This document shows, in pieces, positions 1 through 6,000 of a stretch of DNA of 44,822 bases; the first letter of the stretch is position 1, and each line of letters starts with the position of its first letter. The stretch is taken from the NCBI GenBank assembly GCA_031364845.1, contig JANLWX010000064.1, positions 1-44,822 of the forward strand. Reading direction: 5' to 3'. This DNA comes from Candidatus Eiseniibacteriota bacterium (lineage in GTDB: Bacteria > Eisenbacteria > RBG-16-71-46). A program made the position numbers.

Positions 1-3000
1 CCCACTCGCGGGCCGGGGCCGATTCGCTCAAGGCACGCCTGATGTCGGGAGAGAAGGCCGAGGCCATTCTGCTCGCCGATTCACTCGCGGGGCTCGCTCC
101 GCGCGGGTCGATCCAGCAGCGGTACCAGAACGAGCACGGGCCCTACCACAAGGTGCTGTTCGAAGAACTGCGGCCGGGCCAGGTGACGACCGACGGGCCC
201 GACAAGTCCGGCGACTACATCGTGCTCCAGCTCCTCGCGTTCGAGCAGGGCCGGCAGTTGCCGTTCGCAGAAGTCGAGCGGGTGATCGACGAATCGCTGC
301 AGAACATCACCGGCGACTCGATGCTCCAATCCCTGATCGCCCGCAACAGAAAGCGCTACCGGATCGAAGCGCACCCGGAGTGGGTGATGCGCTTCCGGCT
401 CGCGCCGCCGAGCTGATCGAAGCACGGGCGCCGCGCTACCGACAGAACGACCACCTTCGCGAAACGAAGGTGGTCGTTCTGTTGGGCACGCGGATGACTT
501 ACCGGTAAAGCGCCTTTACCTGACCCCACGTCTTGTTGCGGGTCGGGGTATTGGCCGGGCAGTCGAGGATCGAAATGCTCTGGTAGGTGACCCAGTTCTG
601 GTCCTCTTCGGCCGTGATGAACGGATCGTTGTTGGCTTCGAGCGGCTGGAACAGCTGAATGCTGTTGAAGACGATGCACGCTTCGTTAAGGCAGCCGGCG
701 CACGAGCCGCCGCCGGTCGTCTTCGACTTCAGGATGTTGGCCTTGAACGCATAGTACTGGGTGCCGACGGTCAGCGGGCCCTCGGTGCCGGTCGGAATCG
801 CCGCCTGCATCCGGAACCGCGCCCGATTGGGCGCTCCGTACTCCGAGTCATAGGCAAAGCCACCGGCCGCCTGCCCGCCGAAGAAGTCGATGCACGTGAA
901 CGGGCCCGAGGTGAAGTCGAAGCTGGCCGCAAGACCGGTCGTGGTGCGGCAGGATCCGCCGCCGTGCTTCCACCAGTCCGGAAGCTGGGTGCCAACCGTG
1001 ATGTCGATCTGGGCGTCGATGCCGAGGAACGCATTGACGTTGGCGGGCGGGGTGAACGAACCGACGAGGACCAGGGGTGCTCCCGCGTTGGCATCGCATG
1101 CGAAGGTCTTGGTGTTCGCTCCGGTCGTGCCGCAATCGTCCCACGACAGATTGATCCCCGAGGGGTCGCCGGCGGATGCGATCGACGCCGCCATCAACAG
1201 TGCCGCTCCACTCATGAGCCATTTCTTCATGCGATCCTCCGTTATGAGTTCAGCGTGATGGTTGCGTGCTGCGCTCGATCGATCGGGAGCGCGGCAATCG
1301 CGGGCCAACGGTTCTCAGGCGGCCGAGAACCCAAGCGGCGGCAAGATACCCTAGCGATTCACCGTCGGCCAGCCCGCTACCGGTAGAGGCTTTTGATCTG
1401 TCCCCACGTGCGGGCACGCACCGGGACGGAGGCGCAGTCGGCTCCCGATCCTCCCCGCCACGTCACCCGGTTGGCGTTCGCGGGCCCCGCGGTCTCGAGG
1501 GTGACTTCGGTGGGAACGGACTTGGCGCCGCGCAGCAGCTTCACCTGATTGAGGACGAGGCATGCGGGTTGGAGACATCCGGCGCATCCTGGAAACGAAG
1601 TCTTCTGATTTGAAATCAAGAGCTTGAGGCCGTAGTACATCGCTCCCGCCTCGAGCACCCGGGCGGAGTCCGCGCGGATCGCTAGCAATCCGAGCAGCCG
1701 GGCCTGGCTGCTCTGACCTCGAGGAAGGCCAGGCGTGTAGAGCGCGAGGGCGGCACCGGAAATCCGCCACGGGTCGGCGCACACCCTTTCTAGAGTGAAG
1801 TCCCCGCTCGCGAACAGCGATTGATCGCGGCAGTCTCCCTTGCCCAGCCGCCACCAGTCCGGAAGCGCACCTTCGCTGTGCTGGAGATCGACGGTGACTT
1901 CGATGCCGACGACGTCATCGATCGACTGAGCCAGCGTGAACGCGCAAAAGAGTGCGCTGTTGCCTTCATCGAACTGACACGCCGTTCCCAGATCGGCGTT
2001 GCCGGCTCCGTCGAGCGCGCAGTCGTCCCAACTTAGATAGATCTGGCCGTCGAATGCCGACGCGGGAACGACCATTAACAGCAGACCGGCGATCACGAGA
2101 CTCAGGCGCATAGGCGCCAGATTACGCCACGTGCAAGTCATTGGAGTAGCAATGGAGCCCCAGTTTCCGACCAGCGCGCGAAATGAAAAAACCGAAGCGA
2201 CCGTCTTGCGACGGTCGCTTCGGTGTGAAGCTCAGCAGATTCAGACTAGCGGTACAGGCTCTTGACCTGGCCCCACGTCTTGCTCTTGGTCGGGGTCGAC
2301 AGCGGGCAGCCAACAGGGCCCGTCGCCGGGTTCTGCCACGTGGCGAACTGACGGTCACGCGGATTGGTGATGATCGGATCGTTGGCCAGCTCGAGCGGCT
2401 GGAACAGCTGGATTTCGTTCAGCACGATGCACGCCGAGTTCGAGCAACCAACGCAGTTTCCCGTGCCCGAGGTCTTCGCGCGCAGGAGGTTGGCCTTGAA
2501 CGCGTAGTACTCCGTGCCTGGATCGACTGGCTGCTCGGTGCCGGCCGCGATGGCAGCCTGAATACGGAAACGTGCACGCGCCGGCGAACCGAAACCGACG
2601 TCATACGCCGTGCCGCCCGCCGCCTGACCACCGAAGTAATCGGCGCAGGAGAACGGTCCGCTCGTGAAATCAAAGCTCACGGACAGGCCCGTCGTACCAC
2701 GGCACTGACCGGTGCCGTGCTTCCACCAGTCGGGCAGATTCGCCTGATCGGTGGTGATGTCGATCTGCGCCGACAGACCGCCGAGCTTCGTCACGTTCGC
2801 CGGCGGATCATACGAAGCGACCAGCACGAACGGAGCGCCAGAGTTGGTGTTGCACGCAAACGTCTGGTTCTGCTGTCCAGCAATTCCACAGTCATTCCAC
2901 GACAGGTTGACGCCCTCGGCCGACGCGAACGACGCGCCGAGCACGAGCATCGCACCTGCGATGAGGATGTTCTTCTTCATTTGTTGCCTCCAGGCTATTA

Positions 3001-6000
3001 CTGCAAGGGGGACCAAAAATAGTTACCTGTTAACGGTACAGGCTCTTGACCTGACCCCACGTCTTCGTCTGGGTCGGGGTCGACAGCGGGCATCCGGCCA
3101 CAACGGCCGACTGCCAGGTCACGTAGTTGGAATTTGCCGGATTGGTGATCTCCGGGTCATTTCCTTCTTCGAGAGGCTGGAACAGCTGGACGCTGTTGAG
3201 CACGATGCACATCGGCTCGCTGCAGCCGGCGCACAGTCCGACGCCGGTGCTCTTCGAGCGCTGCACATTCGCCTTGAACGCGTAGTACTCGGTTCCCGCA
3301 GCGACCGGCTGCTCGGTACCGGCAGCGATCGCCGCCTGGACCCGAAGACGCGCGCGATTCGGCGTACCGTAACCGATATCGTACGCGAAGCCGCCTGCCG
3401 CCTGGCCACCGAAGTAGTCAGCACAGCTGAACGGACCACTCGTGAAGTCGAAGCTGATCGACAGACCCGAAGTGGTACGGCACTGACCGGTACCGTGCTT
3501 CCACCAATCCGGAAGCGACGCGGTGTTCGACGTGATGTCAATCTGTGCTGAGAGACCGCCAACCTTGTTGAGGCCGGCCGGCGGCAGATACGACGCAACC
3601 ATGGTGAACGGGACACCGGAGTTCGTCGAACATGTCGTCGAATTGGTTCCCGTTCCGGCTGCTCCACAATCATTCCACGCCAGGTTGATGCCCTGCGCAG
3701 AGGCGATGCTCGCCATCAGCGCCAGCATGCCACCGGCGAGTACAAGGGTCTTCTTCATTGCTGCCTCCAAAGATGCAACGCTACGAGGGGAAGATCTCCT
3801 TGGGTGGTTTTCAGAAGCATTTGAGGTCGGCAATCACCACCTTCCGGTCAGCCGATTTTTGAAACTCAAATCAACAGATTGAAGCGTGAATCAGTGGCAG
3901 TACGCGGCACAGCTCGTGGCCGAACCACCGCCGAGCGAAGCGCCGAGCAGCAGCGACAGGTCGGTCGGATTGACGGTGTTCGAGCAGTTGTAGTCCGAAC
4001 GGCCTTCGAAGTCGCCATCGAACGAGTCCGGCAGGAACAGCGAGAGGTCGGTCGGGTTCACGCCACCGCCGCCGTTCTGATCGAACGCGCCGACATTGAT
4101 CGTGCCCAGATTGACACCATCGGCATACACGGTCGCGCACTTGAATCCCGCAGCCGCGCTTCCACCGGAGTTGTTCGCGCCACCGACGATGCGAATCGTC
4201 ACGACGCCAGCACCGTCCGTCACGGCATTGATCTCACCGACAACGCCCGAGCAGTCGGCAGTGACACCACCGGCAGGCTGGACGGAGCACACACGGATAT
4301 CCGGCGTGCAGGCATTGAAGTCGATCACGACAGAGCTGCCCGGGATCGGATTCTGCGCGAGGTCACGCACGGTGATCTGGAACTCACCACGCGCATCCGC
4401 AACACCCGCGGTCGTACCTACGAGGTTGAGACCGCACGGAACCGAAGAATCAGCAGGGCTGGGAACAGCGGCCATCGAGCTCGAAGCGGCCAGAACTCCT
4501 GAGCACGCGAGAAGCATGGCCTTGCGAAGCAGACCAGACATTTTTGCACCTCCATACATGGGTCACCCCTGTTGCTAGATTAAGACAAAGGCAAGAGTTG
4601 CGAGCAATCAGGCAGGGCTGCGAGCCACCTCCTTTCAGGCTCTTCAATTTCGATCGATCGCTTAGCCGCCGCGTGACCTGTTAATTGTCGCGCTAACAAG
4701 GCGTTCCAAGACAGGAGAAGTCTAAGATCCCGGTTCACAGCATGTCAAGGTTTTTTGCCCCCTTCACGCCGCGGCTACGCTTTTTTACCTTCGTTTAGCT
4801 AGGGTACTGATTGCTCCGGGACTCTTAACCCGGTTGTGCTTCCACGGTGGTGGGCGAAACAGGGCTCGAACCTGTGACCCCTTGCTTGTAAGGCAAGTGC
4901 TCTACCAGCTGAGCTATTCGCCCGTGTTGCGTGCACGAATGAGCAGGGAGGCCGGGATCAGGACCACATAGCCCGTCACCAACAGGACCGGCGCCAGCGT
5001 GATGGAACCCTTCGAGAGCGCGAGATATCCGGCAACGAGGACCGCCACCCCGAGTCCCAGCAGGAGCGAGTTCATCACTCCCCAGCTGAAACCGAGATCG
5101 CTTTCGATCACTGCCCTGCGCTGACTGCGAGGTTTCACCACCGGCTTTCCGTTCATTGCTTCCTCCATGCCCCTTCGGAACGAAACACAAAAGCCGATCG
5201 ACCCGGCCCGATAAGGTCGGGTCGAGATCGTCGGCTACACTGGGTCCTGTACGACGGCCCTGGCACCAACGACCTCAGCGAAGATCGCTCCTTGTGCCGC
5301 CGCCTCCGTGGGGCGCGAGCCTTATACACCCGGTCCGCCGGAGGAGGTTCCCGCTTTGTCACAACCTCGGGGCAATTCGCCCGGAAGCTCCCGCTTCCGT
5401 TCACTCCCGCTCAACACGCGGGAATCGTGCCGGGCCTGGGGATCGGGTGAATCGACTCGGACCGACGCCAGGGCGTCCGAGGCCATTGCGGAAGCCACTG
5501 CCAAATTGAGACTTCCTGATCGGAAGCCCTCGAGATCCAGCGCGACGAATCGGAATCCTGCCTGCTTGAGCCCGTCGACGACTTTGTTTCGCAACGCCGG
5601 GTCCGAAAATCGCGGCAATTCGCACAACGGCAATTCGATACGCGCGACGTCGCCGTGGTAGCGGACCCTGAGTTCGCGGAACCCGAGATCGCGGAGTAAG
5701 GCCTCGCCCGTTTCGACCATGCGAAGATTCTCGCGGCTGATTTCGGTGCCATAAGGGATCCGCGAGGCGAGGCACGGCGACGCCGGCTTGTCGTGACTCG
5801 TGAGCCCATAATGTTGCGCGGCCGCGCGCACGTCGGCCTTCGTGAATCCGAGCTCGGCAAGCGGTGAGCGCACGCCCGCCTCTTCCGCAGCACGGCGGCC
5901 GGGGCGCCAGTCGGTGAGATCGTCGGCAATCGTTCCATCGAGGATGGCCTGCGCTCCCAGCTGCCCGGCCGCGACCTGAAGCTCGCGGTAGAGCTCCGAC

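What a model noticed while it worked through the whole genome (the two positions that open the first line are those of the whole stretch)
499..3758. Ten-residue C-terminal tag (S/T)WGxVKxLYR on 28 secreted proteins
Twenty-eight small (170-350 aa) proteins all end, at the very last residue, with TP-x4-5-(S/T)WG-x-(V/I/L)-K-x-L-Y-R. They have N-terminal signal peptides and unrelated folds: NHL propellers, a plastocyanin-like protein, a pullulanase-X25-like domain, a 243-aa family in tandem on C55, and many with no family. I read this as a new C-terminal sorting or anchoring signal of Eisenbacteria. It is unlike T9SS C-terminal domains (about 80 aa) and unlike PEP-CTERM/LPXTG-type tags (no membrane helix follows), and it may be a donor strand that docks cargo on a common outer-membrane or surface receptor. 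If true a whole phylum uses an undescribed protein-targeting route, and its machinery could be found [...]
Evidence so far: The regex WG.[VIL]K..[YF][RK] hits 24 proteins, and in 24 of 24 the match ends at the last residue. A looser regex adds 4 more (g00839, g00864, g01752, g02686). Of the 23 complete proteins whose N-termini were printed, 22 start with a signal-peptide-like hydrophobic stretch; g00870 does not. None of the 24 has an NCBIfam row. AF2 of g00809 with 18 family sequences gives a beta-sandwich with most of residues 21-219 at pLDDT 84-94, while the last 17 residues (the tag) fall below 50, so the tag is a free tail outside the fold. A profile of the last 32 residues matches 56 of 61 Eisenbacteria genomes, with 5-70 matches per genome in 12 families but 0-4 in the 13 genomes of family f7. 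The same pro [...]
(Added by a program. Inside this text positions count along the whole contig: contig position 1 is position 1 of the stretch shown here. "Call 12" and the like, gene names such as g00115 and contig names such as C1 are that model's own, and its searches are not shown. The text may have been shortened before it was handed on; [...] marks where a part breaks off. The agent that wrote the report below was given it as the finding of a first reader that could run no searches.)

Follow-up and report, generated by a model that had tools for sequence, protein, structure and literature searches.

The report
Short sorting tag with own sortase
About thirty unrelated exported proteins of this uncultured bacterium end in the same 16-residue tail, which sits where the known type IX secretion signal sits in sister proteins and whose core genes lie beside a second copy of the surface-attachment enzyme, so it looks like an undescribed protein address label shared by three bacterial phyla.

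Summary
The tag is real: 30 protein ends score 32 bits or more against at most 14 for 98,151 interior windows. It spans about 16 residues, [TV]-[PAGS]-[VTA]-x3-[ST]WGx[VIL]KxLYR, and is not confined to Eisenbacteria: 116/121, 59/61 and 12/12 genomes of three phyla carry it, against 2/41 weak hits in a fourth. The genome has SprA, PorU, PorV-type barrels and 250 type A CTD proteins. The window's cohesin-like cargo also occurs, up to 65% identical, in CTD-bearing proteins, switching signal at the same junction. A distinct, catalytically intact PorU paralogue lies about 3.4 kb upstream of the window; it is found in the three tag phyla (not in 33 genomes of the fourth) and directly follows tagged genes in 12/12 and 5/8 loci of the other two phyla. 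Best reading (0.55): a sorting signal cut and surface-attached by this second sortase. Nothing is shown experimentally; the tail models as a helix, not a donor strand. This scan noted the same tag and paralogue earlier on other genomes.

The parts
499..1230 (-). Secreted 243-aa cohesin-like protein ending in the tag (tag codons 502-549)
1377..2111 (-). Divergent 244-aa paralogue (about 33% identical to the third gene) ending in the tag (1380-1427); an upstream ATG at 2141 is possible
2191..2224 (-). Terminator-like hairpin (15 pairs, then a T run) just after the third tagged gene; consensus match only
2246..2980 (-). Secreted 244-aa cohesin-like protein ending in the tag (2249-2296); modelled here: beta-sandwich plus C-terminal helix
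3030..3758 (-). Secreted 242-aa cohesin-like paralogue ending in the tag (3033-3080)
3891..4541 (-). Secreted 216-aa protein, Ig-like domain plus C-terminal dockerin-like double repeat; no tag and no CTD; heads the tagged cluster here and in other phyla
1..416 (+). 3' end of a 592-aa SurA/PrsA-like foldase gene; window 1-547 overlaps contig C158 (97.3%), which holds a second such gene and the PorU paralogue (C158:3583-7644)
   Evidence: contiguous in G040
32497..33201 (-). Fifth tagged gene of the window, unrelated cargo (lamin-tail domain); tag codons 32500-32547; start codon inferred

Best explanation
The tail is a 16-residue sorting signal read by a second, dedicated PorU-family (C25) transpeptidase. 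SHOWN by sequence: Sec-type N-termini, a fixed terminal tag, exchange of tag and type A CTD on the same cargo, a separate sortase clade with His and Cys kept, and its gene linkage to tagged genes. INFERRED: after Sec export the cargo crosses the outer membrane through the SprA translocon; the short amphipathic helix (W, V/I/L, L, Y face with an invariant Lys) is the recognition element; the enzyme cuts in the T/V-P/A/G/S-V/T/A motif about seven residues before the Trp and joins the new C-terminus to an envelope acceptor such as a surface glycolipid. The ancestral substrates are small cohesin-like proteins encoded with a dockerin-like partner; many other cargo families were recruited later.
For: Exchange: 8 tagged cohesin-like proteins have 7 CTD-bearing homologues in the same genome, up to 65% identical; in C213 the match runs through CPLST and then continues as Ig+CTD instead of the tag; six tagged NHL proteins and one degenerate-tag beta-helix protein also have CTD-bearing homologues. 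Shared site: a matrix trained only on 226 CTD linkers peaks at tag position -16 in 37% of 126 tags from other genomes, 1-13% at other positions upstream; 15 of 28 non-seed hits of the Ig module that precedes long CTDs have [TV][PA][TVA] in front, against 4.9% of control windows. Partner: PorU paralogue upstream of the window; own clade, SH-aLRT 99, sister to canonical PorU; invariant H873 and C911 in 118 orthologues. Linkage: tagged genes directly upstream on the same strand in 5/5 and 7/7 loci of the Krumholzibacteriota-titled phylum and 5/8 of a third phylum; within the fetched stretch in 13 of 35 Eisenbacteria loci, including tag-poor f7 genomes where chance is 0.7-4% (G055, G019, G116). 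Co-occurrence: clade profile at 300 bits or more in 10/12 and 7/8 genomes of the two other tag phyla, 0/28 of the tag-less phylum, and no clade member in 5 further genomes of it.
Against: No cleavage, attachment or surface location has been shown. 24 of 29 tags of this genome have Pro at the putative P1' position, which does not fit the P. gingivalis PorU motif T/E/D/N|G/A/S (PMC10202324), and the CTD-linker matrix scores only 7% of them. In P. gingivalis a folded CTD is described as essential (PMC11285876). No PorV-type barrel is specific to the tag phyla: both orphan barrels have orthologues in f7 and in the tag-less phylum. GldM and GldN were not found in this genome, with silent controls. 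The dockerin-like partner has neither tag nor CTD, so its route out is unexplained. 22 of 35 Eisenbacteria loci show no tagged gene in the fetched stretch (some contigs are short). 18 of 34 tagged proteins have no CTD-bearing homologue in the genome. The three phyla are probably kin, so the co-occurrence may be one event.
Confidence: 0.55

Rival explanations
1. The tag is an uncleaved anchor: the amphipathic helix docks on a PorV/PorP-like barrel, or on the outer leaflet, as type B cargo do with PorP; the sortase neighbour is inherited gene order.
For: Helical, basic, aromatic tail; about ten PorV-family barrels, two of them conserved without a neighbouring CTD gene; Pro at the putative cut site; type B cargo are anchored without PorU (PMC9143113 abstract).
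Against: A cut-site-like motif is kept at a fixed distance; the barrels do not track the tag across phyla whereas the sortase clade does.
Confidence: 0.15
2. The paralogue does process the tag, but tagged proteins do not use the SprA pore: they stay in the periplasm or leave by another route (type II secretion, or carried by a partner).
For: 16 residues cannot form the CTD fold that PorV binds; GldM/GldN not found; dockerin partner lacks an export signal; tagged proteins of this genome are all small (median 254, maximum 350 aa, against median 708 for CTD cargo).
Against: The paralogue itself ends in a CTD-like domain, which points to the surface; the same cargo domains are CTD cargo; the last 22 residues of HBP35 suffice for T9SS export (PMC10202324, PMC11969387 passages).
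Confidence: 0.13
3. The paralogue is a polymerase: it links the cohesin-like subunits to one another into a covalent fibre or coat, with the dockerin-like protein as cap or adaptor and the other tagged proteins as minor subunits, like a class C sortase with its pilins.
For: Operon of dockerin-like gene, 1-5 tandem fast-diverging subunits and enzyme; the fold also matches Gram-positive pilin domains (CppA Z 8.2); a nearly invariant Lys in the local cohesin family (K148).
Against: Cohesins match better than pilins (Z 10.1); known PorU acceptors are sugars; most tagged cargo are unrelated folds; no isopeptide motif was tested.
Confidence: 0.1
4. One reading: a donor beta-strand that completes a groove on a common receptor.
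For: The tail lies outside the folded domain and is exchangeable.
Against: Helix in the model; hydrophobic moment 0.43 at 120-140 degrees against 0.26-0.28 at 170-180; invariant Gly and Lys.
Confidence: 0.03
5. A quality-control or chaperone-binding motif (tail-specific protease, or the neighbouring SurA-like foldases) without a role in sorting.
For: SurA/PrsA-like genes lie between or beside the tagged genes and the sortase in many Eisenbacteria loci; aromatic terminal motif.
Against: Does not explain the exchange with CTDs or the upstream site motif; SurA-like genes were not detected between tagged genes and sortase in the other two phyla.
Confidence: 0.04

Closest known systems
T9SS type A CTD (TIGR04183 / PF18962, FlgD_ig-like) with PorU, PorV, PorQ, PorZ
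   Same: Extreme C-terminal signal on Sec-exported, unrelated cargo; exchangeable with it on the same domains; small-residue site motif in a flexible linker; C25 enzyme as partner; basic last residue.
   Different: 16 residues and helical instead of a 70-100 residue beta-sandwich; partner is a separate PorU clade not followed by a porV gene; Pro common at the site; cargo small.
Short CTDs of Prevotella intermedia (40-55 aa, three strands; PMC11969387) and the 22-residue HBP35 minimal signal
   Same: Show that T9SS signals can be much shorter than the full domain and still be cut and glycosylated.
   Different: They keep CTD motifs B, D, E and beta structure; the tag has no such motifs.
NCBIfam PorU2 / PorV2 (NF052324, NF052325)
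   Same: A second sortase-like and barrel-like paralogue beside the canonical T9SS pair.
   Different: The paralogue here scores 129 against a cut-off of 450, lower than canonical PorU of the same genome (137); it is a different clade.
LPXTG/sortase, PEP-CTERM/exosortase, MYXO-CTERM (features recalled)
   Same: Short motif plus dedicated transpeptidase encoded near core substrates; some of the same cargo types (CHRD, DUF4114, lamin-tail; their link to PEP-CTERM is recalled, the domains are).
   Different: No transmembrane helix or basic cluster; enzyme is a C25 peptidase with its own outer-membrane export domain.
Non-cellulosomal cohesin-dockerin pairs (e.g. Clostridium perfringens GH33 cohesin, PDB 2vo8)
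   Same: Cargo fold (Z 10.1, rmsd 3.0, 128 aligned) and a neighbouring double F-hand dockerin-like protein.
   Different: 9% identity, disulfide-rich, diderm host, no Pfam cohesin hit; binding untested.

Membership tests
T9SS type A CTD signal | 70-100 residue seven-stranded beta-sandwich at the C-terminus | tested here: not met
   16 residues; helix in model; none of 34 tagged proteins hits the local CTD profile
T9SS type A CTD signal | N-terminal Sec signal peptide on cargo | tested here: met
   32 of 34 by hydrophobicity, two truncated; no SignalP run
T9SS type A CTD signal | PorU-type cleavage motif upstream of the signal | tested here: inconclusive
   Matrix peak at -16 in 37% of external tags, 7% of own tags; own tags match the start of long Ig+CTD signals
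T9SS type A CTD signal | Host has SprA, PorU and PorV | tested here: met
   SprA 570.9 > 200, PorU 479.8 > 420, PorV family over cut-off
T9SS type A CTD signal | Host has the GldL/GldM motor and GldK/GldN ring | tested here: inconclusive
   GldM and GldN not found, but controls silent; GldK and GldL not searched
T9SS type A CTD signal | Export depends on SprA; signal removed and cargo lipid-linked | not testable with these tools
   needs proteomics or genetics
P. intermedia short CTD | 40-55 residues, three strands, motifs B, D, E | tested here: not met
T9SS type B CTD | About 100-residue domain with a cognate PorP/SprF gene nearby | tested here: not met
   Length not met; neighbours of 31 tagged genes were listed but not annotated and PorP was not searched
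LPXTG / PEP-CTERM / MYXO-CTERM signals | Motif followed by a transmembrane helix and basic cluster | tested here: not met
   0 of 160 tails, maximum 1.39; no NCBIfam hit for 50 tails
PorU sortase (NF033707), for the C158 paralogue | Score above the equivalog cut-off | tested here: not met
   234 against 420; separate clade
PorU sortase (NF033707), for the C158 paralogue | C25 domain with His/Cys dyad, PorU-like N-terminal domains and a CTD | tested here: met
   only PDB match is PorU 6za2, E 4.9e-14
PorU sortase (NF033707), for the C158 paralogue | Transpeptidase activity | not testable with these tools
   needs assay
Cohesin module | Cohesin beta-sandwich fold | tested here: met
   Top hits of Foldseek and VIA are cohesins, Z 10.1; pilin domains follow at Z 8.2
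Cohesin module | Binds a dockerin | not tested
   the single complex job went to the sortase and tag
Dockerin | Duplicated calcium-binding loop plus helix | tested here: inconclusive
   Two repeats and two helices; profile hits to solved dockerins E 0.004-0.06; Pfam below cut-off; Foldseek no hit at E 0.001

The most novel reading that the evidence does not exclude
Three phyla of uncultured diderm bacteria run a second, undescribed branch of type IX secretion, apparently without the known GldM/GldN energising parts, in which a 16-residue helical tag replaces the folded CTD and a dedicated C25 transpeptidase joins cohesin-like subunits into a covalent surface fibre or coat that displays dozens of tagged proteins and dockerin-bearing partners: a Gram-negative counterpart of sortase-built pili.
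Probability: 0.15. Interest if true: 0.93.

Novelty: new variant of a known kind. Interest (0 to 1): 0.76.

Why it matters
Every described T9SS signal is a folded beta domain, and recent work treats that fold as required. A 16-residue helical tag with its own PorU-family enzyme would be a new class of signal, would give a first job to one of the unexplained PorU paralogues, and would annotate 10-70 hypothetical proteins per genome in three widespread uncultured phyla as envelope proteins. A short tag plus one C25 transpeptidase is easy to test in vitro and could be a protein-ligation or surface-display tool.

Tried and rejected
Complex prediction of sortase residues 231-1135 with the 33-residue tail: no answer, score 0.02 against a mark of 0.32; no evidence either way. 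Looking for a tag-specific PorV barrel by presence/absence in f7 and by tree across three phyla: none found. Using f7 as a natural loss: it keeps the sortase paralogue and a few tags. ESM Atlas: unnamed short Eisenbacteria clusters below 0.9, and generic C25 clusters. Cluster look-ups for taxa of distant sortase orthologues: one named Krumholzibacteriota, the rest without a phylum. Record titles 'Fibrobacteraceae', 'Verrucomicrobiia', 'Polyangiaceae', 'Zixiibacteriota' were not taken as range: one 'Fibrobacteraceae' genome (G129) falls in the Krumholzibacteriota-titled phylum, and the Zixiibacteriota-titled phylum is essentially tag-free. RNA runs: contigs from four metatranscriptomes of relatives cover 2241-4760 in part; contigs cannot rank genes or prove transcription. 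Lipoprotein reading: 1 of 34 has a lipobox-like match. Literature searches for the tag or these phyla with T9SS terms found nothing on it (listings only, and PMC11495043 passages); subscription papers and bioRxiv supplements were not visible. A similar tail that I recall from Poribacteria proteins was not tested. Viral contigs were not scanned. Tree is the quick method; 7 of 77 rows were dropped for short extraction and none is closest to the paralogue clade; loci were capped at 30 per search.
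Full report
OBSERVATION. The four minus-strand genes at 499-3758 are real and each ends in the tag. 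Over 72,373 six-frame segments of the genome the strict pattern matches 26 times, 25 at the last residue. A profile of the tail separates 30 ORF ends (32-46 bits; 29 were seeds) from everything else: next end 17 bits, best of 98,151 interior windows 14.2. With degenerate forms the set is about 34. 118 of the 120 listed homologues of the third gene keep the tag. Position counts over 157 tails give [TV]-[PASG]-[VTA]-x-x-x-[TS]-W-G-x-[VIL]-K-[SA]-L-Y-R with the T/V at -16 (the W, G, K and S/T columns were selected by the search patterns). No Pfam or NCBIfam model covers it.

RANGE. 116 of 121 genomes of the window's phylum match (at most 70 candidates were scored per genome, so counts are lower bounds). 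Using those genomes as centres: 59 of 61 in the phylum of a Krumholzibacteriia-titled record, 12 of 12 in a small third phylum, and 2 of 41, one weak hit each, in the phylum of a Zixiibacteriota-titled record. The phylum names rest on record titles and on source names of homologues.

T9SS CONTEXT. The genome has SprA, a canonical PorU with PorV behind it on C186, about ten PorV-family barrels and 250 ORFs with a terminal type A-like CTD. GldM and GldN were not found, with silent controls. The cargo of the window is shared with CTD cargo: eight tagged paralogues have seven CTD-bearing homologues at up to 65% identity. In C213 the alignment runs to CPLST and then goes on as an Ig module plus CTD where the window protein has its tag. 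Six NHL proteins and one beta-helix protein show the same pattern; 18 of 34 tagged proteins have no such homologue. Short CTDs here are preceded by V/L/T-A/G/D/S-V-E/P/G/D. A matrix learnt from those 226 linkers alone peaks at tag position -16 in 37% of 126 external tags but 7% of the 29 own tags. The own tags use T-P-T/A/V, which resembles the start of the long Ig+CTD signals; outside the seed set 15 of 28 hits of that Ig module have [TV][PA][TVA] in front, against 4.9% of controls. P. gingivalis PorU cuts at T/E/D/N|G/A/S (PMC10202324, passages), so the Pro-rich form would need a different specificity.

PARTNER. Window bases 1-547 match the start of contig C158 at 97.3%; the same-genus genome G040 has the region in one piece. 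It holds two SurA/PrsA-like genes and then, on the same strand as the tagged genes and about 3.4 kb from them, a 1353-1389 aa C25 peptidase whose only PDB match is PorU. It is below the cut-offs for PorU and for NCBIfam PorU2. In a quick tree of 70 C25 domains it forms its own clade (SH-aLRT 99) beside canonical PorU, with members from both tag phyla sampled and none from five genomes of the tag-less phylum; His and Cys are invariant. A clade profile scores 300 bits or more in 10 of 12 third-phylum and 7 of 8 further Krumholzibacteriota-type genomes, and at most 196 in 28 tag-less genomes, whose top five hits are canonical PorU followed by PorV. The clade has at least 150 clusters at 50% identity. 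Tagged genes lie directly upstream on the same strand in 12 of 12 Krumholzibacteriota-type loci, including two genomes that scored no tag at all with my profile and turn out to have divergent tails there, and in 5 of 8 third-phylum loci. In Eisenbacteria 13 of 35 fetched stretches hold one, and crossing the listed rows puts a tag within about 15 kb in at least 17 of 44 genomes of the own family. In tag-poor f7, G055 has one genome-wide match and a tagged gene at this locus (chance 0.65%), G116 six and three. These genomes are kin; the figures are not independent trials.

STRUCTURE. AF2 with 122 sequences gives a confident beta-sandwich (mean pLDDT 90) and a helix at 215-222 at pLDDT about 60. 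The sandwich is cohesin-like (2vo8, Z 10.1, rmsd 3.0, 128 aligned), with pilin domains close behind. The gene heading the cluster encodes an Ig-like domain plus a dockerin-like double repeat, with weak counterparts at the head of the cluster in all three phyla. It has neither tag nor CTD.

MECHANISM. Most likely (0.55): Sec export, passage through SprA, recognition of the short helix, cleavage at the -16 motif by the paralogue and attachment to an envelope acceptor. Only the sequence features, the exchange with CTDs, the clade and the linkage are shown; every biochemical step is inferred. The weak points are the Pro at the site, the lack of a tag-specific barrel, the reported need for a folded CTD in P. 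gingivalis (PMC11285876, passages) and the untagged dockerin partner. Precedent for short signals: 40-55 residue CTDs in P. intermedia and the 22-residue HBP35 end (PMC11969387, PMC10202324, passages). Rivals: uncleaved helix anchor (0.15), non-SprA route (0.13), covalent polymer (0.10), quality-control motif (0.04), donor strand (0.03).

NOVELTY. It works like a T9SS CTD with PorU but is not a member of any CTD type. Six literature searches aimed at the tag, its phyla or the paralogue listed nothing that describes it; subscription journals are outside the library. This scan's own notes report the same tag and paralogue on at least five other genomes; I read them after searches had shown the linkage, and they are not independent support. 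Added here: the same-junction exchange with CTDs, a negative-control phylum for both tag and enzyme, the third phylum, and the f7 test. Verdict: real, undescribed, a new variant of T9SS-type sorting; interest 0.76.

Noticed in passing
G000 genome-wide: SprA, PorU and PorV-family barrels and 250 CTD proteins, but no GldM or GldN match (controls silent): possibly a T9SS with a different energising part.
   Followed up: partly
G000:C50:53186-54319 (+): An NHL protein about 50% identical to tagged NHL proteins ends instead in a hydrophobic stretch followed by basic residues: a third kind of tail on the same cargo family.
   Followed up: no
G000:C227:45325-46296, C31:15541-16254, C95:25663-25782: Tags followed by 27 or 5 extra residues, and a 39-aa frame ending in a tag: read-through, decay or frameshift.
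   Followed up: no
G000:C177:14657-15394, C177:17034-17810, C201:17908-18615: Three further paralogues of the dockerin-like protein, none with tag or CTD.
   Followed up: partly
G000:C200, C220, C153, C213: Large CTD proteins with 1-6 copies of the cohesin-like domain, scaffoldin-like.
   Followed up: partly
L181 (G006) and G251: Two copies of the sortase paralogue, in tandem in G006.
   Followed up: no
L285-L287, L386-L390: In the tag-less phylum the PorV behind PorU is a 900-1070 aa protein with a large extra part.
   Followed up: no
Tag phyla carry 3-17 C25 peptidase matches per genome, mostly a gingipain-like clade in tandem arrays.
   Followed up: no
window:25899-31166 (-), 35727-37451 (-): 1755-aa beta-helix and Ig-repeat CTD protein and a lamin-tail CTD protein flank the fifth tagged gene.
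   Followed up: no
window:13228-13589 (-), 4848-4923 (-): tmRNA gene; tRNA-Val just upstream of the dockerin-cohesin cluster.
   Followed up: no
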